Below are positions 1 through 12,806 of a DNA stretch of 64,000 nt, piece by piece. This DNA is from Eremomyces bilateralis CBS 781.70. Its lineage: Eukaryota. Both the position numbers and the translations under genes were made by a program. Location of the stretch: assembly GCA_010015585.1 (NCBI GenBank), contig ML975185.1. One strand, 5' to 3'. Below the pieces are notes generated by a model. That model saw only the letters and a program-made list of their open reading frames with translations, was not told the DNA's origin and searched no databases. The first letter of the stretch is position 1. Every line of letters begins with the position of its first letter.

Positions 1-1
1 A

Positions 2-1627
2 AACGGCTCGCCAACGCCGGAACGAATTCCGAAGACTATAATCTTTATAGACTCCCGACGTGATATCCAAAAATGTGCGGAATGTCTGCGAGGCTGGCTA
101 CAGAAACTCTCAGCTGGGGCCGTCGGGGCCCACGACTGCAAGCAGATTATCCAGGTCTACCATTCACACACCACTCCAAACGACAAGAATGCTATATACG
201 ACCAGTTTTCCAAAGCGGACTCTAAGATCCGAATTATGGTGGCCACAGAATCATTAGGAACGGGGGTAGATCTCTCGGATGTCACACGAGTTGTCCAATA
301 CGGCTTCCCTCTGGAACGACTCTTATGCGTCCTTATCCAACGATTTGGCCGTGCAGCTAGGATGGCTGGCATTAAAGGAGAGGCCATCTTCTTGGTGGAA
401 AGTTGGGCGATAGGTGACAGGATCTTATCGACAAGACCGGCGCTTCTATCCAGAACTCAGACGCCGTCGTGTTTAAGACGGCCTTCCAACACGAGCCGGT
501 TAGCTCAGTCGTACTCTGCTGATCCAGGAGTGGGCGGTGACATCCTAGATGATGAATCGGATATTGCCGTAGACGCCATTAAATATGATATACCAGGAGA
601 GCAGCACCGACGCAAAACGGAGAGAGAACGCCGAACAGACCTACACGATGACTGTCCGGCGCTATTCAATCTTGTTAATCGATCCGCATGCCTACGCCGA
701 ATCCTAATGGATTGGCTACAAGAGAGTCTATCGGATCCAGCATCTAGGTTACCGGCTCCTGAACCGCAGGAGTGCTGTAATGTCTGTAACCCAGATCTGG
801 CGCGGGCGGTACCTTTCCCATGGGATACCACAACTGGTCTTCGTAAGCCCCAGACTGGAACGGCATCCGGCGCATTTTATGACCGCCTGACCCTCTGGGG
901 AGATAACGTTGTGAATTCGGCACATCGGATGATGAAGCCAGAACTCTCAGCACGGTTATTCGCGCCGAAGGAAGAGTGGATATCAATATCGAGAGAGTAT
1001 ACGAACATCCGCTCGGCTGCTGAGTTGGAGAAGTTTACGAAATCGGCTTGGATGAAAGACCATTCCCATGAGCTGTTCGAAGAGTTCAATAAAATCAAGT
1101 CCTATGTAGTGAGGAACTGGCCCGGACGCTATACACCAGGAACCGCAGCGGCAGCTCAAGTTCTAATACGAAGGGCGCCATTCGAACACGCTCATCCCAC
1201 AGTCGAACAGCAAGTATCTCAACACAGAGGTCGGAAGAGAAGATTGTCTATAGAAGCAGAGACTCTGATAACTCCTGATCAGGAACGAAGAGTATTACTC
1301 GCGCGTGAGCGAGAAGAGTACGTTTCCTCGCTAGAGCGGATCATTGCTCAGGCAAGGGAGGTGTCAGCCTCGTGCTCTTCCCATCTACCTACCCTACCAA
1401 TGACCATAGTATCAGCGAACTCGTCATTTACATCTATGGGTAGGTTGATGACATCTACAAACGTAGATTATTCTTCTGCTAGGTCAGGTGTTCTCGAAGA
1501 CGGCGAGAATGAGGTATCAGGTGTAATTGATGGTAATCGGGCCTTGAAACGTCCCATATTAACCCGGGGGGGGGAAGTAGAAACGAAACGGGTCGTCCTC
1601 GGCGTTCTAGACTCTAACGCAAGGTGA
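2..1627 (+). CDS. RecQ-like SF2 helicase, C-terminal half (5'-partial), transposon-encoded
   Basis: Frame is open from base 2. Motif IV IPKTIIFID, IVa YHS, V VATESLGTGVD, VI QRFGRAAR, RecQ-type Zn site CLRR...CCNVC, then an HRDC-like helical segment (FYDRLTLW...ELEKF). Confidence 0.85.
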   Translation, partial: NGSPTPERIPKTIIFIDSRRDIQKCAECLRGWLQKLSAGAVGAHDCKQIIQVYHSHTTPNDKNAIYDQFSKADSKIRIMVATESLGTGVDLSDVTRVVQYGFPLERLLCVLIQRFGRAARMAGIKGEAIFLVESWAIGDRILSTRPALLSRTQTPSCLRRPSNTSRLAQSYSADPGVGGDILDDESDIAVDAIKYDIPGEQHRRKTERERRTDLHDDCPALFNLVNRSACLRRILMDWLQESLSDPASRLPAPEPQECCNVCNPDLARAVPFPWDTTTGLRKPQTGTASGAFYDRLTLWGDNVVNSAHRMMKPELSARLFAPKEEWISISREYTNIRSAAELEKFTKSAWMKDHSHELFEEFNKIKSYVVRNWPGRYTPGTAAAAQVLIRRAPFEHAHPTVEQQVSQHRGRKRRLSIEAETLITPDQERRVLLAREREEYVSSLERIIAQAREVSASCSSHLPTLPMTIVSANSSFTSMGRLMTSTNVDYSSARSGVLEDGENEVSGVIDGNRALKRPILTRGGEVETKRVVLGVLDSNAR

Positions 1628-1692
1628 AGCCCTCGCAACAAGAAAGGGAATAATAGCCGCTACAACCACAGCGAGTGGACATTATAGATAGG

Positions 1693-4420
1693 TTACTCTG
1701 ACTCGACGTCCGAAGGTAAACCCCATTCATGGGCTACATCTCTGTCTGCCAAGGGCTGGCGACGTCTGTTAGCACGAGACTAGAAACTCCATGAGCATGC
1801 GCATACCAATATCGCCATCGTGTCGCTATTAGGATCTAAATCAGCCGTGGCTCCTCTCCTCTCATAAGGTGGTACGACTATTCGATCTTCATCTCTTATG
1901 ACCTTTGCATTAAACACCTCCAATTTTTGAGTTGCTACTCTTCCGAGCCCGATCGTATGTATGTCTGGTGCTTGATGTCTTGCCTCCCTGCCGCCGTCAT
2001 AAAATTTAATCGAGTCGCATGCCAGCTCAAAGGCTAATGTATGAATATCATCCATCGCGGAGGGCACAGAATGTGTGGAGTTGCCCTTCCGGGCGAATGC
2101 GTCCTCTACTGCCCTGCGTAGACAAACAGTATATTCTGCCGTTAATGAGGTAGTCTTGAACAGAGCATCCAATCCGAAAGTCGACGTTCGACGGGCCCAA
2201 AGCTCTCTTTTCAGCTCCAGGTTCAGATATTCAAGGCTACGATCGACTTCTTGCCAGGTGTCCCGACAGCCATGCGGGTTAACGAGGCTATTCGAGAGTA
2301 TTGCGCGCCGAAGCTCCTTGTCACAAGCTTTGGTGCTAGTGAGCCGCTTTAGATAGAGCATTTCGAATGCGTAGTTTGATTGTCCAGTCCCCTCGAAGTA
2401 AAAGCAACAGACACCAATGACTCGGTCGATGAGTCCTATATCTCCGTTTTTGATGCCGTACTTCAAGGTCTTGTACACAACCATTTGTTGAAGGTATCGA
2501 GCATGACTAAGGAACTCCTCATCGACTGTATTGTTGGTATGCTTCTCCTTCGATGGTCGCCAGGCTTCCGGCTCAAATGCGGATCTGCGAACATCCTCCA
2601 CCAGTTCCATGAACCCTCTAGTATCCATGTTCCGAATTGCCTTGTCAACCCCCTCTTGATCGGAGATATCGATGCCGTACTGCTCGAGGCGAGTATAAAG
2701 TAGTCCAACAACTCGAGCGTCGAAACTGTGAAGCACTAGCTCTTCTAGAACCTGAAAAGCTGCACGGTCCGCTGGAATATTCTTTCGTCCCCAGAAGTTG
2801 ATGTTGTGATAGAGAGTTGAAGCGTCCTGTTGCTCCATGTTTCCGTAATGTGTCTTTTGCATGAGCCATAGAAAATTCATACGCAGGTGAAAGAGAGCAG
2901 CGACTCCTATCAGCCAGTCTTTTCTATCATACGCCATAGACGCGTCGACTTGCTCAGCCTGCATAGATCGGATAAGTGAAGAGGTTTTTTGATCGCCAAA
3001 CGCCAAGAACAGACGGTTGTCGAATTCTTTATTATCTAGTTGGAATTGGTGCTTGTAGATGCTCTCTATAACCTCGTAGGAGCCATCTAGAGTACCTTCG
3101 TTGAAGAGAATCGGACCGAGCGTCTTGCTGTCTGTCTTTCGAAGCTCGAGTAACTCGACTGTTGGCATAGCGGGGTAAGGTATACCGGACGTAGAGAAGA
3201 TAGATTTGATCGCGAGTGGATATACCGATCGAATTGCCTCCGCTATAAAGTAGGTATCAATCTTGGCGGCGGTCTCGTCATATACTGCTGCACCAGGAGA
3301 GTATAGAAGATCCTCTATTGTAAGTGGAACCTCGCGGTGCAGCATTGACTGCTTTAAACCACCAGAGGGGATATCGGCGCCTCTGAAAACCTTTCCCGTT
3401 GTCACAGAGCGCATTTCTGCGTGATTTGAAATGAGCTGGTGCTTAATACCTTCTCGATAGTCGAAATTGTCATACACAACACAGGCATCTAGTTGCTGAC
3501 CATATCGACGGACCGTTCCCTAGTTGCAATCAGTCGACGTCTATGCTGAGAGGCGGTGAAGATGCCTTTGCTTGTTCTGCCACGGTTTCGAGATGTCTGT
3601 GGACTCCCTTGTAGCCTTCACAAACCCCAAACTGGTGAAGAAGATCGAGGATACGCCGTTTCACGCCATTTGAGTGCAGAAAGGCACCAAATACGCGGGG
3701 AAACTTGTTGCTCCCTTCCGACGCCCGAGAATAGCAGAGAATCGACGTGATTATCGCAATCCTGTGGTTGAATTTGACAGGGTCCCGTAGTGATCGATCT
3801 TTTCTCTCTCTCTTGGGCGCCATGATGCCATTAAGCAATCCACATAGAAGAGGAGCATGAGTGTTAACTTGCTCGTACATCTGCCCAAACTGCATATCGC
3901 CCAGTATACGCTCGTAGTCCTCGACTTTCTGTCCCTCTGGCTCTTTCTCCCTTCCCATGCCGGCAGGTGAAGTTCTCTCTTGGACACGGTCGACTTGGTA
4001 GGCACTAAACATACCTCCGGCTTCTTCCAGTGCCTTCATTTCCTTCCTCAGACCCTTTATAGTGACAATTCCTGTCGCACCAGACGCGGGGTGTTCTTGC
4101 AGCGCGTCTAAGACCTCTGGTTGACCGTAGACGGCCTCGGCGAGCCGTTTGGCACGCGTGGCAGGGCGCTCTCCATAACCACCAGACCCTTGAGTCGTCG
4201 CGTAGACATGGATAAATTCTCGTAATGTAATTTTTTTTTTCCGCATGAATTGGCATATCTCGTTTACTCTCTGCGCTTTACTGCGTCTTTGAGACCTTCT
4301 TACTTTCTGACGAGGTGCATTAGATGTGTTTGAAGCAGCAATATGCCGAGGACTTGGAGCGGGAGGCAAGATGGGCGGGTTCAACCGCGCACTCTGACGA
4401 CGCTGGTTTTGGGCCGACAT
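1693..4420 (-). CDS. DUF6589/Academ-type DDE transposase, ~876 aa, 3 exons (4420-3566, 3519-1807, 1755-1693)
   Basis: Motifs VYDNFD, FGDQKT, ALFHLRMN and DRSLEYLN. A 46-nt intron (3520-3565) joins ORFs 3530..4438 and 1780..3477 in frame. A 51-nt GTATGC..GCTAAC..CAG intron (1756-1806) gives the C-terminus ...SDVESE*. Confidence 0.75.
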
Positions 4421-4579
4421 GGCCCAAAATTCAATCAATTATGGAAAAAGCCCAGAGGAATCGAATGGATGTATTCAATTGATGATGCACCATGTGGTTG
4501 TGGATAAAAATGGAGTTAAAGATGGTCTTCTATTTGGCATGAAAGTTCACGGCACACGCCGAAATAGGTGGACAGAATC

Positions 4580-4715
4580 CTCAGGCTATTTGTTCGAGGA
4601 GCACATGTGACTTACCGATTAGGTATAGTCCGCTCCGGTGCCTTGGCACGACCACAAATAGCCTGAGCTTGCTGAGGTAATCCTGGTGTGGCGCTAGGTC
4701 ACGTGCAAGCCTGAG
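4580..4715. repeat. Subterminal inverted repeat and AGCCTGAG motif array
   Basis: CTCAGGCTATTTGT (4580-4593) is the exact reverse complement of ACAAATAGCCTGAG (4654-4667). Another AGCCTGAG at 4708-4715 and a degenerate TGCTGAG at 4670-4676. Confidence 0.8.
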
Positions 4716-4739
4716 GTGGTTAGGACAACAAACAAACTA

Positions 4740-4931
4740 ATGACGTAATGATGTAGCGGAGCGGATCTTCAACATCGATGGATGATGTGCGGAATAATCG
4801 ACACTCGTGCTGTGTAGTCTAGACATAGATGGCTACACTACGTACTTAACTGTAATATTCGTATAAATATCTGAGTATCCCACCAATCATCTGGTTTGCT
4901 TAGCAAACCCACTGATGTCAGAATCACGTCA
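4740..4931 (+). promoter_or_regulatory. ATF/CRE-like sites upstream of the catalase gene
   Basis: ATGACGTAA at 4740-4748, TGATGTCA at 4913-4920, TCACGTCA at 4924-4931. Fungal spore catalases are known Atf1/AtfA targets. Confidence 0.4.
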
Positions 4932-5189
4932 AGTCCAAAGCCGGCGAGCGATCGAAGCTAACATGCCGAATTGGAGACTCGGAGCTCCATCCTTGGATAA
5001 GGAAATTGATGATGTAGTCAATCATCGTCGATGATGCTGTCATTGCGAATCAGGCTTTCCGAATACCAATCGCACTTCAAGTGCTACCTACTCCCCCCTT
5101 AAATCGTGGCGCTCTGGTCAATTCACGTCTTAAACCTATTCCTGCTTCCTTTAGTGTCCATCCAATCTTACATGCAAGCTGTTTCAGCT

Positions 5190-7445
5190 ATGACAGGAGA
5201 ATTACTGAAGAGTGGCCTTGAAAAGGCCGAGATGATGGTGGGCGGGGAGCAGAACGCGAAGCTTGCCCAGTTCAAGGTGAACACTAAAGATGTCACCTCA
5301 GGGAACGGTGTCATCACCTCCGACTATGGCGTGAAGCAGGTCAATACGGACGACTGGCTGAAGGTCGTGAACGAAAATCATACTGGTCCTGCGCTTCTTG
5401 AGGATCCATTCGCAAGGGAGAAGGTATATCTACAACTAGTCCAGCGTGCCAAGTTCCTAACACGGTGAAAGATCCATCGCTTCGATCACGAACGAATCCC
5501 GGAGCGTGTTGTCCACGCTCGTGGTTCTGGAGCCTTTGGGACCTTCCGCCTCCTCGAGAGCGCACAGGATGTGACAAGCGCAGGTATCCTAACAGACACG
5601 TCTCGAGAGACCCCACTGTTTATACGCTTCTCTACCGTGCTTGGTTCTCGCGGATCCGCCGACACCGTCCGGGATGTTCGCGGGTTTGCCGTCAAGTTCT
5701 ATACCCAAGAAGGCAATTGGGACATTGTGGGCAACAATATACCCGTATTCTTCATCCAAGATGCGATCAAGTTCCCCGACGTCATCCACGCCGGCAAGGC
5801 CGAGCCGCACAATGAGGTCCCCCAGGCGCAAACTGCGCATAACAACTTCTGGGACTTCCAGTTCATGCATACGGAGGCGACGCATATGTTCATGTGGACG
5901 CAGAGCGATCGGGCCATCCCCAGGAGCTTCCGAATGATGCAGGGATTTGGCGTCAATACGTACACGTTGATCAATAGCGAGGGTAAGAGACACTTTGTCA
6001 AGTTCCATTTCGTTCCGGAACAGGGCGTCCACAGTCTGGTGTGGGATGAGGCTCAGAAAATTGGTGGGCAGGACCCTGACTTCCACCGCAAGGATCTGTG
6101 GGACGCCATCGAAGCTGGCGCGTACCCGAAGTGGAGGTTTGGCATCCAGGTCATTCCGGAAGCCAATGAGCACGAGTTCGATTTCGACATCCTTGATGCC
6201 ACCAAGATCTGGCCGGAAGACCTTGTGCCTGTCCGGTTCATTGGCGAGATCGAACTCAACCGTAACCCGGACGAGTTCTTCCCTCAGACTGAACAGATCG
6301 CGTTCTGCACCAGTCACGTGGTCCCGGGCATCGGTTTCTCGGATGATCCCTTGTTGCAAGGGCGGAACTTCTCGTACTTCGACACCCAGCTCTCACGTCT
6401 TGGCGTCAATTGGCAAGAACTGCCCATCAATCGACCCATCTGCCCGGTTCTGAACCACAACCGAGATGGGCAAAGTAGGCATACGATCACCAAGGGCACG
6501 GTGAACTATTGGCCAAACCGCTTCTCTGCTGGACCGCCGGCTGAGAAGTCGGATCCGACGTCGTATGTCGATTATCCTCAGAAGGTCGAAGGGATCAAGG
6601 TTCGCACTAAGTCAGCCAAGTTCAAGGAGCACTTCAACCAAGCACAGCTCTTCTACAACTCCCTCTCACCCCCGGAGCAAGCCCACATCCAATCCGCACT
6701 GTCCTTCGAGCTGTCCCATTGCGACGACCCGACAGTCCATGAACGCCTGTGCCAGCGTCTGGCCGATATCGACCTGGGCCTGGCTCAGCGGGTCGCCCAG
6801 ACCGTCGGGTCGCCGGCACCCCAAAAATCAAACCACCCGAACCACGGCAAGAAGACGATCCATCTCTCCCAAACCGAATTCCCAGGCTCCAACACGATCC
6901 CGGCACGAAAGATCGCGTTGCTTATCGCGAACGGCTTTGACAGTACGGTGTATCAGACCATCGAAAAGGCGTACAAGGCGCTTGGTGCCTTGCCAACTCC
7001 AGTCGGCCCAGTTCGTACTCCCATCCAGCCCGCCTCAGGGTCTGCGGTGCAACCCATCCACCACCTGGAATCGGCACGTAGCACGCTCTTTGACGCGGTT
7101 ATTCTCATTGGCGGCAACGAATCCTACCAGGCGACACTTTCCAACAACGGGCGTGCCGTGCACTGGGTACGTGAAGCGTTCGGACACTGCAAGCCTGTCG
7201 GCGCGATCGGCGGAGCCGGCATTGCGATCCTCAAAACGGCGGTGGGGACGGTGCAGCAGGTGCAGATTGCCCAGGGATCGAGCGTGCTGGAAAGCTTCGG
7301 AGTTGTCACGGCAGGGGAGCAAGCGACACTTGGAGACGAGATGATGAAGCAAGGTTCCTTCATGACGACCTTCACGCAAGTTCTGGCTAAGCATCGTGCT
7401 TGGAATCGAGAGACGGAAGGCTTGACGACGATGGTGGCATATTAG
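5190..7445 (+). CDS. catA: Large-subunit monofunctional catalase (CatA/Cat-1 type) with C-terminal DJ-1/GATase-like domain
   Basis: FDHERIPERVVHARG, RFSTVLGSRGSADTVRD, GRNFSYFDTQ; C-terminal HWVREAFGHCK domain. Intron 5424-5471. Start is ATG 5190 or 5172. Confidence 0.93.
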
Positions 7446-8700
7446 GCATTGGGCGAAGAGCTGATCGTTAGCAAATCGTGTACCTACCAATTTCATGAGT
7501 GTGTAATGCGAAGTCGTGACATGGAGACTTTAACCATGTTTCTCTGCGTTCGAAACTCGCGAGTAGTAGAAGTATGGTGTGACCATTCCCATCAGTATGC
7601 AAAACCGGCGATTACGACACGTAAGCTGGCGCGGACACGCGATTCTCATAAACATTTCAAAGCAAGATGAGAAGTTGATGAGTGAGGAGCCATATAGGAT
7701 CAGATGTCGTCGCTCAGGAAGTTGGGATGTAGTCAAATCGTGTCGGAGTCGACATCACTGTCCATTCTCCGTGTCCGATGAACCTAACCCCAGTTGACCA
7801 GTTCCCATGGATGGACATCTGATCCGTGCAGTCGCCAAATCGCGCTTTCATGGACAACCTCGGCGCGCGAGTTGCAACAGGGCCTGGCATAGGTTCGGCG
7901 TGGAGAGGTGTTGAGCGACAAGAAACCAAAGACCACATGCAGGGAGGCTGGGACTGGGGTATAGGTATGGTATGGAATAGGGACTTATCAGTTGACATAT
8001 GCGTGTATTTTGATTTGATCTATGGATGTGGATACTCTGTATCATGATGACTATCATCTCATTCATCTGGGACAGTTTTTAAGAAGGGAAGAATCATGAA
8101 GCACGTGCATTCGGGTCGGCATCTTTCGTCAACCGCTGAGCTTCACCAAACACCTTTCACATGCGAATCCCGTCGACGATGATGTTAGTTTCGGTTGCTC
8201 CTGTGTAAAGCCGTAATCTGTAATCTGTACGGAGTACAGACTGTCCTATTAGACTGTAATCCCGTAATCCCGCAACTACCTTAATACCTATCCAGTAGTG
8301 ATCGGGCGCTGGTCTAGTGGTTACGGGTGGTATGTAATGGTAGACATCATCGCCGAATCCCCATTTTCCCCCATGCAAATCATCCCATGCCACCCCCCAT
8401 GACATCGGACTTCCCCATGCCGCCTTGCCATTAATATAACCTCGTCGGCTCCCTGTGACAGTCGTAACTCGTAGGTAGCTAGGAACTACGCGTACCGGTA
8501 GCGATTCGCTTAACTAGTTTCCCCTCCCTTTAAGACCACCGCCATCACCGTGCCTGCTTCATCAGTATCTTCCGTTCCTTTCCCATATCCATCCTCTCAT
8601 TCCTCCGGTCTCCATCCCAGCTCCCACATCAACCCATATCTTCGATATCCTCCCTTCTCACCGCCCATTCGAACCGTCCCTCCGACTGAACTTCATCACC

Positions 8701-9155
8701 ATGTCTCTCGCCGATCCCGCCTTCCCGTCCTCTGCGGCCTTCGACGCCATCAACTCGGCCCTGCAATCCGACGACGCCGAGCGGAAAGACGCCATCAAGA
8801 AGACCGGCGTCGTCTTCGCCTTCACCATCAAGAACGCTGACGGAAAGGTCGAGAGCTGGAACATCGACTTGAAGGAGAAGGGTGTCGTGTCCAAGGGCGT
8901 CGGGAAGCCGAATGGTGAGCACTCTTCCACGATCCGTTCACCACGACAATGGGGCCGCACGAGAGCAGGGCTAACGATTGTTTCCTTCTAGTCACCCTCA
9001 TCCTCTCCGAGAAAGACTTCGCCGGCCTCCTCTCCGGAAAGGCCAACGCACAGAAGCTGTTCATGTCAGGAAAGCTCAAGGTCAAGGGCGACGTGATGAA
9101 GGCCACGAAACTGGAGCCGGTGCTGAACAAGGCCCGGACGAAGGCGAAGTTGTAA
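8701..9155 (+). CDS. Peroxisomal SCP2 sterol carrier / lipid-transfer protein (POX18-like)
   Basis: SCP2 signature NAQKLFMSGKLKVKGDVMKA, C-terminal PTS1 -AKL, intron 8915-8991. Confidence 0.9.
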
Positions 9156-11313: not shown

Positions 11314-11828
11314 GATGGATTCGCGACAACCAGGTGTTCCAGGTGTTCCAGCGAAAGTGTTGTGAGGCCACGAGAGATCTGCTGTCATGTACAGTCAGAA
11401 ATCGAGAAAAGCCTGCGATATAAACCCCGTACAGGGTTACATATAATAGTTACATGCGACACCGAAGTCCGAGAAGGGCAACGGGATGGGGGCAGGGGTG
11501 TAGGTAGGGAGCAGTTAAGCACAGTAACTTAGTACTGTGTACAATTGGCTACTAAGTACTTAAGTACTTACTCACACTGTTAGTCTGTTACACACAGTAA
11601 CTAGCCGACGTAGCCGTACAGTCTTCAGAACAGGAGGAGATACCTAAGACCACGATAGGACTAATTAATGGGACAGCTGAGGATGGACTGGAGGGAGTGA
11701 GCAGTGCGGGGAACGTCAAGGTCAGGACGTCAGGTCTTGACATGAATAATGTTGAATCTTGTCCTTCCACTTGGGTTGACTATGGTTCGAGTCATTTCTG
11801 ATCATTTCCATGTGACCAACCGAACCAC

Positions 11829-11878
11829 TGCGTTTGTTGATGCGTTTGTTGATGCATTTGTTGAACTGCGTTTGTTGA
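11829..11878 (+). repeat. Short tandem repeat, 4 x TGC(G/A)TTTGTTGA
   Basis: Copies start at 11829, 11841, 11853 and 11867. Confidence 0.85.
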
Positions 11879-12806
11879 CTTCACCCGGCAGCTTGATTTC
11901 CTTAATATTTCTTCCTTCAGAATTCCTTCAAGTCTAAAGTATTTCCATTTTCCATCTTTCATCTTCCATCTTTGCCAATCTCTATCTGCTGTGTGCTATG
12001 TTAAGCTGGTAGTCATTATATATTCGTAGTCCACCTTGATTAGTTAACGGCTTTATGATTTATTCGAAGGAAGTATTGTCGTAGGAGGAACTACGAGTCG
12101 TTTCAAAGTGTGCGGCGAATGATGGACTGAGTAGCATTTTCTTTATCGGTAACTAGACAGTAGACATTCAAACACAGGGTAGTCAGTGTCAAGGATACTT
12201 TATCTAAGAGGAAATTGAAGAGACACTCTTGTGACTCGAAACCCTTTTTGATGCTATCAGTCATGGTATGATCCATATATGATTTCTCTCGTTTTCCTAA
12301 GACTCACAGAAGTGTGCCCTCTCTGCCTAAGCAAGACCTCACCCACATCAACAGACTAGAAATCGAAGCCGGCCAAAATGCACAATACTTAAGGACTTAG
12401 GATTTGGCTTCGTCCCGGTAGGCGAAGTTGAAAGACCTATCTCCGCCTTCTCGACTCCCTTGAGCTGCCTCACCAAACCGGGTACACAATACAAAGCCTT
12501 CATCTTTAGAGAGGCAAACTAAGGTAACGCTTAATGGATTTCGAAGTCTTGGGGAATATTTTATGGTCAATGAATGTTGTCTTCGCAACCAGGTTTGGTA
12601 GAGGATGACATGGTTCAACGATACGCGATGTCCTCTACCCATGCCGATCTCTCAATCTCTGCTCCCCTTATTACTTCGTACCACTTACTGTACTGCAGTG
12701 ACGATGCAACTATGACTGTGATCTTCTCTCCCTTCTAACTACCCAAGATTCTATCGCTGTGCAATTTGATTTCTTATATACGGCATGGATGAGATATTGA
12801 GACGCC

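What the first reader, a model, noticed from the sequence alone, without database searches (positions are those of the whole stretch)
1..4739. Apparently intact helicase-encoding DNA transposon (AcademH-like) in an ascomycete
Seen: two long uninterrupted ORFs arranged tail-to-tail, a RecQ-type helicase (motifs IV-VI, Zn site, HRDC-like tail) and a spliced ~876-aa protein with YDNFD / GDQKT / LFHLRMN / DxxLExLN motifs. Known: the AcademH lineage of Academ DNA transposons pairs a DDE transposase with a RecQ-related helicase and makes 9-10 bp TSDs; it is poorly studied and the role of the helicase is unknown. Inference: this is a young, possibly active copy with no stops or frameshifts in the visible part, even though many ascomycetes degrade repeats by RIP. 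Standard annotation would likely mislabel it as two host genes.
Basis: partly seen in the sequence, partly recalled or inferred. Interest (0 to 1): 0.78.

Follow-up and report, generated by a model that had tools for sequence, protein, structure and literature searches.

The report
Helicase-carrying fungal DNA transposon copy
The start of this window is the right three-quarters of a 6.3-kb jumping gene that carries its own DNA-cutting enzyme and a RecQ-like helicase; it is a multi-copy, probably recently mobile member of a rare transposon group already described, not a pair of host genes.

Summary
Window 2-1627 (+) is the 3' part of a RecQ-related SF2 helicase gene. Window 1693-4420 (-) is a three-exon, 876-codon gene whose core matches Pfam DUF6589 (E 1.9e-65).

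The transposon reading is supported. Full relatives (L001, L002) are about 6.3 kb with terminal inverted repeats. The window holds only the right 4,680 bp, and the tip is at 4680, not 4739. The left ~1.4 kb lies outside the window.

The DUF6589 core folds (pLDDT 91) as an RNase H-like DDE transposase. The family is multi-copy in the source organism and shows at least four different right flanks. It is under purifying selection (dN/dS 0.09 and 0.14-0.16) and is not RIP-mutated. It is 87-90% identical to proteins of fungi of another class, whereas the neighbouring catalase reaches at most 65%.

"Intact" needs two caveats. A TGA replaces an Arg codon conserved in relatives and removes the helicase's last 20 residues. 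The left end is unseen, so the TSD length, a defining feature, is untested.

Kolobok membership is rejected. AcademH is the best fit, but homology to Repbase Academ could not be tested.

The scan found this kind before (e1-7706094 in the same genome, e1-7502660 in another). Verdict: new member of a known kind.

The parts
2..1627 (+). 3' part (541 codons) of the RecQ-related SF2 helicase gene, holding motifs IV-VI. It ends at TGA 1625-1627, where relatives have an Arg codon. The first ~290 codons lie outside the window.
   Evidence: Helicase_C E 2.4e-14; full-length relative in L001: DEAD + Helicase_C; best PDB matches RECQ1/WRN/RecQ at E ~2e-17.
1628..1687 (+). In-frame remainder of the ancestral helicase reading frame (SPRNKKGNNSRYNHSEWTL, then TAG 1685-1687), cut off by the premature TGA.
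   Evidence: frame translation; about 22 of 32 relatives in A5 carry the tail RRSPRS.KGKNSRY...L.
1693..1755 (-). Transposase exon 3: 20 codons (PLADRDVAHEWGLPSDVESE) plus stop TAA at 1695..1693.
   Evidence: the homologues' C-termini PLEDRDEAHEWGLPSDIESE.
1756..1806 (-). Intron 2, 51 nt, GT..AG, with a CTAAC-type branch site.
   Evidence: a contig of run X2 skips exactly 1756-1806 (CT..AC on the + strand); donor, branch site and acceptor are kept in 5 of 5 aligned copies, and one copy has a 1-nt indel.
1807..3519 (-). Transposase exon 2 (571 codons): the DUF6589 / RNase H-like DDE core with a large helical insertion. Candidate catalytic residues are D17 (3471..3469), D176 (2994..2992) and E430 (2232..2230).
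   Evidence: E 1.9e-65; pLDDT 91, pTM 0.91; P element Z 9.4, integrases Z 8-9, Hermes Z 8.3.
3520..3565 (-). Intron 1, 46 nt, GC..AG, with an ACTGAT branch site.
   Evidence: an X2 contig skips 46 nt here (placement free by 3 nt; 'between: not known'); the AAG|GCAT donor is kept in 10 of 10 aligned copies and the ..AG acceptor in 10 of 10, with a 1-nt indel in one copy; the spacing matches distant homologues.
3566..4420 (-). Transposase exon 1 (285 codons): basic N-terminal region with no Pfam family. Start codon at 4420.
4580..4667 (.). Subterminal hairpin. Arms 4667..4655 (CTCAGGCTATTTG) and 4592..4580 (CAAATAGCCTGAG) are separated by a 62-nt loop.
   Evidence: DNA fold -24.6 kcal/mol, z -4.9, 0 of 200 shuffles as good. 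(12-pair stem present in 10 of 10 ends; 4 pairs with compensatory double changes).
4661..4680 (-). Right terminal inverted repeat. The tip TTACCTCAG (4680..4672) is invariant in 10 of 10 ends. The last base of the element is 4680.
   Evidence: loose ends at 4670/4680/4681 run into other flanks, and the single-copy-depth unitig starts at 4655.
4699..4705 (.). CACGTGA motif in the flank, 19 nt outside the tip. It is not shown to be part of the element.
   Evidence: 5 of 6 flanks carry CACGTG 20-49 nt outside the tip.

Best explanation
Window 1-4680 is the right-hand ~4.7 kb of a ~6.3-kb autonomous cut-and-paste DNA transposon.

The element carries two convergent genes whose ancestral stop codons lie 5 nt apart:
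- a three-exon gene for an 876-aa DDE transposase, whose catalytic core is what Pfam calls DUF6589;
- a one-exon gene for a RecQ-related SF2 helicase of roughly 830-940 aa.

Each end consists of an invariant 9-nt tip (TTACCTCAG) followed by an ~87-nt hairpin-forming palindrome.

Shown:
- the RNase H-like fold, with D/D/E at conserved positions;
- TIRs in full-length relatives;
- several copies with different flanks in the source organism;
- purifying selection on both genes;
- no RIP;
- contigs in one run that lack exactly the two introns.

Inferred:
- The transposase binds the CTCAG-type repeats at the tips, cuts both ends and integrates them elsewhere.
- The helicase, always co-inherited and constrained, opens the subterminal palindromes so that they fold or are resolved, or it processes the gapped donor or target.
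- The family was recently active in this genome and has moved between distantly related ascomycetes.

The best family label is the AcademH lineage of Academ. This particular copy has an apparently sound transposase gene but a helicase that lacks its conserved last 20 residues. Its left end is outside the window.
For: Boundary and size:
- Six sequences from different sources align from TTACCTCAG inward and are unrelated outward.
- L001 and L002 carry matching inverted tips 6,300 and 6,289 bp apart (22 nt at 86% and 24 nt at 88%).
- Nucleotide similarity to the window runs from 4680 to position 10.

Transposase:
- DUF6589, 221.6 bits against a cut-off of 27.
- The AF2 model has pLDDT 91.0 and pTM 0.91.
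- In the structure search of 48,161 chains, rows 1-27 are all DDE transposases or retroviral-type integrases: P element Z 9.4 over 289 residues, Hermes Z 8.3 over 283, RAG1 Z 5.2 over 308. The Foldseek top hits are Hermes and P element, at a weak E of 0.02.
- D426 and E430 are invariant and G175-D176 nearly invariant in 62 sequences.

Helicase:
- The full-length relative has DEAD + Helicase_C.
- The 37 best of its 44 PDB sequence matches are RecQ-family chains.

Pairing:
- In all 3 loci that extend more than 500 nt past the transposase 3' end (L001, L002, L006), the helicase follows tail to tail.
- In three named fungi the two proteins are recorded on contigs of identical length (309,810; 1,043,615; 1,046,827).

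Mobility:
- In DNA run X1, 686 contigs lie on the stretch, 247 of them under 99% alike.
- Exact-match unitigs inside the element have depth about 1,000, against 197-270 for the flanking unitigs.
- Loose ends at 4670, 4680 and 4681 run into three other flank sequences.
- A 308-aa annotated fragment on a different contig is 307/308 identical.

Selection: dN/dS is 0.088-0.092 for the transposase (525 codons, 3 relatives) and 0.14-0.16 for the helicase (287-289 codons, 2 relatives), at dS 0.6-0.96.

RIP: TpA/ApT 0.77, (CpA+TpG)/(ApC+GpT) 1.12, composite index -0.35.

Introns.
Against: - The left ~1.4 kb (helicase motifs I-III, left TIR) is not in the window. So this copy's completeness and its TSD are unknown.
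- The helicase has a premature TGA.
- No TSD was seen in any relative. L002's 8 nt of left flank do not match its right flank. L001 has only 2 nt of left flank.
- Homology to Repbase Academ transposases was not tested: no Repbase is available, and the defining papers are not held.
- The Foldseek match is weak (E 0.02). The VIA Z of 8-9 is in the range that the tool calls common, so the fold call rests on the uniformity of the hit list and on the conserved acidic residues.
- Run X2's RNA nature is a guess by the tool, and its catalase contig (4824-7978) is unspliced. The 'spliced' contigs may therefore come from a mixed library.
- The summed contig depth is not a copy number.
- A role of the helicase at the hairpins is pure inference.
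Confidence: 0.85

Rival explanations
1. It is a helicase-carrying TIR transposon, but of a superfamily other than Academ: the fungal KolobokH lineage, or an unnamed DUF6589 superfamily.
For: - Kolobok lineages that encode a RecQ helicase exist. KolobokH is reported only from fungi (PMC9587614, passages read).
- No comparison with Repbase Academ sequences was possible.
- The only hints on TSD length here are an 8-nt spacer between two abutting tips in L010 and a 2-nt agreement with a 9-bp TSD in L001. The literature gives 9-10 bp for AcademH (PMC10045372).
Against: [quoted passage not shown] Here 0 of 6 flanks begin with TTAA.
- The conserved His follows A-L-F, not C/D-x-x (consensus PALFH).
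- In KolobokH the helicase lies downstream of the transposase domain. Here it is a separate convergent gene.
- The nearest ESM Atlas DUF6589 clusters come from Mollusca, Basidiomycota, Arthropoda and Mucoromycota (a lead only). This fits the 'animals and fungi' range stated for AcademH.
Confidence: 0.12
2. The family is mobile, but this copy is defective: truncated on the left, and/or disabled by the helicase nonsense codon. It is then either immobile or moved only in trans.
For: - TGA at 1625-1627 replaces an Arg codon conserved in relatives and removes a tail that about 22 of 32 relatives in A5 carry.
- The window gives no left end.
- A near-identical annotated fragment elsewhere in the genome is itself labelled 'partial'.
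Against: - The transposase frame is open over all three exons, with conserved splice signals.
- The right TIR and hairpin are intact.
- The lost tail is short and basic, and may be dispensable.
- The truncation on the left may merely be the edge of the window.
Confidence: 0.35
3. The two genes are host genes, domesticated or ancestral, that only resemble transposon genes.
For: Both genes are under purifying selection. Public annotation treats the relatives as ordinary genes.
Against: - TIRs bound the pair in relatives.
- Several copies with different flanks occur in one organism.
- Relatives sit on 6-7 kb repeat-length contigs.
- The pair is 87-90% identical across fungal classes, whereas the adjacent catalase reaches at most 65% identity to any other fungus.
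Confidence: 0.03

Closest known systems
AcademH lineage of the Academ superfamily (Kojima 2020, Mobile DNA 11:15). The paper itself is not held; it is known here through citing papers PMC10045372 (passages) and PMC10799480 (passages).
   Same: - A DDE transposase plus a separately encoded helicase related to RecQ.
- Low-copy elements in Ascomycota, Basidiomycota and Mucoromycota, and in animals. This fits the taxa of the DUF6589 clusters.
- TIR-bounded.
   Different: - The TSD of 9-10 bp is not verified. The only hints are 8 nt (L010 spacer) and a 2-nt agreement with 9 bp (L001).
- Sequence homology to Repbase Academ transposases was not tested.
- Whether the hairpin-forming subterminal palindromes and the CACGTG motif near the insertion sites are described for AcademH, I could not check.
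KolobokH (Kolobok superfamily; PMC9587614, passages read)
   Same: Fungal DDE transposon that carries a RecQ-type helicase.
   Different: [quoted passage not shown]
- Here: no TTAA at 0 of 6 tips, AxxH, and a separate convergent helicase gene.
P element and hAT (Hermes) transposases, RAG1 (solved structures 6p5a, 8edg/4d1q, 6cij)
   Same: [quoted passage not shown] Aligned over 283-308 residues.
   Different: - 6-10% sequence identity.
- No C/DxxH motif.
- No GTP-binding or BED/THAP domain was detected by Pfam.
- The resemblance is of fold, not of family.
Earlier scan findings e1-7706094 (same genome, 6,032-bp helicase-carrying Academ-type element) and e1-7502660 (another genome, 44.7-kb RIP-killed helicase + DUF6589 element)
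   Same: The same gene pair and the same proposed family. Hairpin-folding ends were also noted (e1-7706134).
   Different: - The word-based look-up found no look-alike of either protein of this window among noted stretches. This is therefore a different family or copy.
- Relatives of this one are ~6.3 kb.
- It is not RIP-mutated.

Membership tests
AcademH / Academ superfamily | DDD/E transposase with an RNase H-like catalytic core | tested here: met
   AF2 pLDDT 91. Rows 1-27 of the structure search are DDE transposases or integrases. D17, D176 and E430 lie at the canonical places (end of strand 1, after strand 4, on a helix) and are conserved.
AcademH / Academ superfamily | The transposase is homologous to Repbase Academ transposases | not testable with these tools
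   No Repbase library is available. Kojima 2020 and Yuan & Wessler 2011 are not held. The one paper that mentions DUF6589 does not link it to Academ.
AcademH / Academ superfamily | Encodes a helicase related to RecQ in addition to the transposase | tested here: met
   The helicase follows the transposase gene in 3 of 3 loci that reach far enough.
AcademH / Academ superfamily | Target-site duplications of 9 or 10 bp (PMC10045372) | tested here: inconclusive
   The window lacks the left end. L002's flanks (8 nt against 121 nt) show no duplication. L001's 2-nt left flank agrees with 9 bp only. L010 has two tips 8 nt apart.
AcademH / Academ superfamily | Terminal inverted repeats | tested here: met
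   L001: 22 nt at 86%. L002: 24 nt at 88%. The window holds the right TIR only.
Kolobok (KolobokH) | TTAA-specific 4-bp TSD | tested here: not met
   0 of 6 flanks begin with TTAA (TCCT, AAAT, CGAA, GCTT, TACA, ACCG).
Kolobok (KolobokH) | [quoted passage not shown] | tested here: not met
   The only conserved His there (H211) sits in P-A-L-F-H, so position -3 is Ala.
Kolobok (KolobokH) | Helicase encoded downstream of the transposase domain | tested here: not met
   The helicase is a separate gene on the opposite strand.
RecQ helicase family | SF2 core with motifs I-VI, most similar to RecQ helicases | tested here: met
   The window has motifs IV-VI. The full-length relative has GKS, DELH and SAT. 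Its best PDB matches are RECQ1, WRN, RecQ, RECQ5, RECQ4 and BLM, at E 1.8e-17 to 9e-7.
RecQ helicase family | RecQ C-terminal region (Zn-binding subdomain + winged helix) | tested here: inconclusive
   Four conserved Cys: C230, C258, C259, C262. There is no Pfam match. The PDB matches stop before the Zn subdomain. AF2 pLDDT is 40-52 there.
RecQ helicase family | HRDC domain | tested here: inconclusive
   No Pfam hit at E <= 10 for residues 217-541. The structure search matched only residues 1-142.
Pfam DUF6589 (PF20231) | Score above the gathering cut-off | tested here: met
   221.6 bits against 27; profile positions 17-409 of 410 are matched. All 53 of 53 homologues carry PF20231.

The most novel reading that the evidence does not exclude
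These elements transpose through structured ends and choose their targets. The helicase extrudes or resolves the conserved ~87-nt subterminal hairpins so that the DDE transposase acts on folded DNA. Integration is steered to about 20-27 bp from a CACGTG E-box, that is, to promoters marked by a bHLH factor. This copy lies 509 bp upstream of the catalase start codon. That would be a helicase-dependent, promoter-tethered cut-and-paste mechanism with no described counterpart among eukaryotic DDE transposons.
Probability: 0.15. Interest if true: 0.75.

Novelty: new member of a known kind. Interest (0 to 1): 0.45.

Why it matters
- It gives Pfam DUF6589 a function. The family has 1,327 50%-identity clusters and is annotated as 'unknown function'. 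It is the catalytic core of a DDE transposase.
- It shows that 'ATP-dependent DNA helicase' and 'hypothetical protein' entries in several fungal genomes are transposon genes.
- The family appears young and transcribed in a genome without RIP damage, and it is far more similar across fungal classes than a host enzyme is. It is therefore a usable system for asking what a transposon-borne RecQ-like helicase does, which is an open question for AcademH.
- The hairpin ends and the E-box near insertion sites are testable leads.

Tried and rejected
- Whole-genome search: no genome is held for this window. So there was no BLAST copy count and no upstream extension.
- Papers: Kojima 2020 and Yuan & Wessler 2011 are not held. 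A search for Academ + XPG gave nothing useful.
- Repeats within the window: no second copy and no left TIR.
- Viral contigs and genome contigs: no relative of the transposase. One viral contig matched the tip pattern (L012) but lacks the hairpin, so it is a chance match.
- PDB by sequence for the transposase: nothing (best E 0.71).
- Helicase structure: mean pLDDT 53.8. Only the RecA2 domain matched generic SF2 helicases, so it does not settle the Zn site or HRDC.
- 'The flank is a decayed end of an older relative' (a lead from e1-7706128): local alignment of 6 flanks to their own ends gave z <= 1.8, so it is not supported here.
- Sequencing runs: no RNA holder is listed.
- Run X5 (same species label): nothing laid.
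- Run X4 (organism B): it has near-identical element pieces at depth 4-7 but no cover over 4801-9000. This may simply be the same fungus at low abundance, so no transfer is inferred from it.
- Reading intron 1 with a GT donor at 3583 (GTGGCA, 64 nt): dropped in favour of the GC donor at 3565. The GC donor fits the X2 contig, the homologue spacing and 10 of 10 copies.

Full report
**What is there**

The first 4.7 kb of the window hold two convergent reading frames.

- On the + strand, a frame open from the window's first base runs to 1627 (541 codons). It matches Pfam Helicase_C (E 2.4e-14).
- On the - strand, two long ORFs (3530-4420 and 1780-3414) belong to one gene.
- The larger ORF matches Pfam DUF6589 at 221.6 bits, against a cut-off of 27 (E 1.9e-65).
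In an alignment of 62 family members they are the most conserved positions.

**Where the element ends**

A scan of metagenome contigs with the transposase gave 11 loci. Nucleotide similarity between them and the window runs from window 4680 down to position 10.

- Aligned at the end, six sequences from different sources agree from TTACCTCAG inward and are unrelated outward.
- L001 and L002 contain the same tip in inverted orientation, 6,300 and 6,289 bp away (22 nt at 86% and 24 nt at 88%). The unit is therefore about 6.3 kb with TIRs.
- By that measure the window lacks about 1.4 kb: the first ~290 helicase codons, a ~0.5-kb leader and the left TIR.
- I could not extend the window, because no genome is held.

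**Gene models**

Three lines of evidence fix two introns in the transposase gene.

1. Distant homologues have 28-29 residues between GY(K/Q) and VYDNFD, and they end in PLEDRDEAHEWGLPSDIESE.
2. Contigs of run X2 skip exactly 1756-1806. The ends read CT..AC on the + strand, which is GT..AG on the gene's strand. They also skip 46 nt at 3519-3565, placeable as a GC..AG intron at 3565..3520. DNA run X1 lists neither skip.
3. The donor, branch site and acceptor are kept in 10 of 10 copies for intron 1 and 5 of 5 copies for intron 2. One-base indels occur only inside the introns.

Exon 3 reads PLADRDVAHEWGLPSDVESE, then a stop.

Two caveats apply to the run evidence:
- The tool only guesses that X2 is RNA.
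- The X2 contig over the catalase gene is unspliced.

The helicase frame is not quite intact.
- Relatives read ...LDSNARRSPRSKKGKNSRY...L.
- The window reads ...LDSNAR, then TGA (1625-1627), then in frame SPRNKKGNNSRYNHSEWTL and TAG.
- A nonsense codon at a conserved Arg therefore removes the last 20 residues.
- The ancestral stop (1685-1687) and the transposase stop (1693-1695) are 5 nt apart.

**What the proteins are**

Transposase core (exon 2):
- Folded with 62 aligned sequences, it gives pLDDT 91.0 and pTM 0.91.
- Foldseek's best PDB hits are the Hermes and P element transposases, but weakly (E 0.02).
- An all-against-all structural search of 48,161 chains gives 36 chains with Z >= 5. Rows 1-27 are all DDE transposases or retroviral-type integrases. 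These include P element (Z 9.4, 289 aligned), HTLV-2/SIV/PFV integrases (Z 8.5-8.9), Hermes (Z 8.3, 283 aligned) and Tn5. RAG1 follows at Z 5.2 (308 aligned).
- Z values of 8-9 are not rare by the tool's own note. The argument rests on the uniform hit list and on the conserved acidic residues at canonical places: D17 in strand 1, D176 just after strand 4, and E430 on the helix that follows a ~230-residue helical insertion.
- A PDB search by sequence finds nothing.

Helicase:
- The full-length relative in L001 (935 aa) has DEAD + Helicase_C.
- Its 37 best PDB sequence matches, of 44, are RECQ1, WRN, RecQ, RECQ5, RECQ4 and BLM, at E 1.8e-17 to 9e-7.
- A RecQ-like Zn site is possible, since four Cys are conserved, but it is unproven.
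- HRDC has no support.

**Is it mobile?**

In DNA run X1 of the source organism:
- 686 contigs lie on the first 9 kb, and 247 of them are under 99% alike.
- The element is broken into ~300-nt unitigs, while the flank forms unitigs of 807-4,931 nt.
- Exact-match unitigs inside the element have depth 987-1,075, against 197-270 in the flank.
- The flank unitig begins at 4655, that is, 26 nt inside the tip, close to the k-1 = 30 nt overlap expected for 31-mer unitigs.
- The summed depth is not a copy number, so I give no count.

In run X2, contigs that match up to 4670, 4680 or 4681 run on into three other sequences. With the window's own flank, that makes at least four different right flanks.

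Named protein hits add relatives of both genes on four other contigs of the same species. One of them is a 308-aa fragment that is 307/308 identical. The catalase next to the element is 100% identical to that species' annotated catalase, which lies on yet another contig.

Other indicators:
- Against three or two metagenome relatives at dS 0.6-0.96, dN/dS is 0.088-0.092 for the transposase and 0.14-0.16 for the helicase. Both genes are kept by selection.
- The RIP indices are those of unmutated DNA: 0.77, 1.12, composite -0.35. The thresholds are recalled, not from a call.

**Distribution**

- The transposase core is 87-90% identical to proteins annotated in Stachybotrys elegans, Fusarium solani and F. 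duplospermum (Sordariomycetes). The helicase is 77-78% identical to proteins of S. elegans and Dactylonectria estremocensis.
- The source species is a dothideomycete.
- As a control, the adjacent catalase reaches only 60-65% identity to its best hit in any other fungus, over 119 listed non-self hits.
- This pattern is what horizontal transfer of the element predicts. No tree test was run.

**Ends and flanks**

- Each end has the invariant 9-nt tip, a 3-4-nt spacer, and then a 12-13-bp stem that closes a ~60-nt loop.
- The window's end folds at -24.6 kcal/mol (z -4.9; 0 of 200 shuffles as good).
- The stem is present in 10 of 10 ends, and 4 of its 12 pairs show compensatory double changes.
- Unexpectedly, CACGTG lies 20-49 nt outside the tip in 5 of 6 flanks of 60 nt. 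The per-flank chance is 0.014, and 0 of 200,000 shuffles reach 4 of 6.
- Two of these flanks (L001, L002) may be one orthologous insertion, which would leave 4 of 5 independent flanks.
- The three other flanks seen in run X2 show no CACGTG in the 19-30 letters printed.
- The flanks do not resemble the element's own ends (z <= 1.8).
- I leave this unexplained. It could be targeting near an E-box, or a loosely conserved outer part of the element.
- No TSD could be read. L010 has two tips head to head, 8 nt apart.

**Classification**

- Kojima's later paper states that AcademH makes 9-10 bp TSDs and encodes a helicase (PMC10045372, passages). Another paper states that AcademH occurs at low copy number in Basidiomycota, Ascomycota and Mucoromycota (PMC10799480, passages).
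- Kolobok also has a fungal helicase lineage. [quoted passage not shown] All three features were tested here and none is met.
- AcademH therefore remains the best label. Two defining features are still untested: the TSD length, and homology to Repbase Academ transposases.
- In the searchable library only one paper mentions DUF6589, and it does not link it to a transposase.

**Mechanism**

Shown:
- a DDE fold;
- TIRs;
- copies at different sites;
- a constrained helicase that travels with the transposase.

Inferred:
- cut-and-paste by the transposase at the CTCAG-type repeats;
- the helicase opening or resolving the subterminal palindromes, or processing the donor or target gaps.

**Verdict**

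This is a real transposon of a kind already described, which this scan has met before (e1-7706094 in the same genome, e1-7502660 in another). The window holds only its right three-quarters. The family looks young, but this copy's helicase is slightly truncated.

Noticed in passing
window 4699-4705; L001 6328-6333; L002 6345-6350; L004 and L009 flanks: CACGTG (mostly TCACGTGA-like) lies 20-49 nt outside the transposon tip in 5 of 6 flanks. This is far above chance. It could mean insertion near E-box sites, or a loosely conserved outer segment of the element.
   Followed up: partly
L010 263-288: Two element tips lie head to head with 8 nt between them (CTGAGGTAA-ATGCCTAC-TTACCTCAG). This could be tandem insertion into one target, a circle junction, or an assembly effect.
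   Followed up: no
window 4588-4680 (run X1 contig): One DNA contig joins 4588 and 4680 on opposite strands with 3 letters between them. This is an inverted duplication of the end, or a fold-back at the hairpin.
   Followed up: no
window 4681-5190: The tip lies 509 bp upstream of the annotated start codon (5190) of a large-subunit catalase gene, so the element sits in that gene's promoter region.
   Followed up: partly
helicase C-terminal region: window ~1300-1500; L001 helicase residues ~640-830: A module (…ERxEYxSSLxRIIAxARExSAS…) occurs once in the window's helicase and twice in L001 and many relatives. This accounts for ~100 aa of length difference.
   Followed up: partly
window 11501-12500: This is the only 1-kb stretch of the window with a positive composite RIP index (0.09) and with GC of 0.43.
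   Followed up: no
window 522-4482 (run X4, organism B): A run with another organism label holds element pieces with 0-5 differences per 250-520 nt, at depth 4-7. Whether that is the same fungus at low abundance or another host was not resolved.
   Followed up: no
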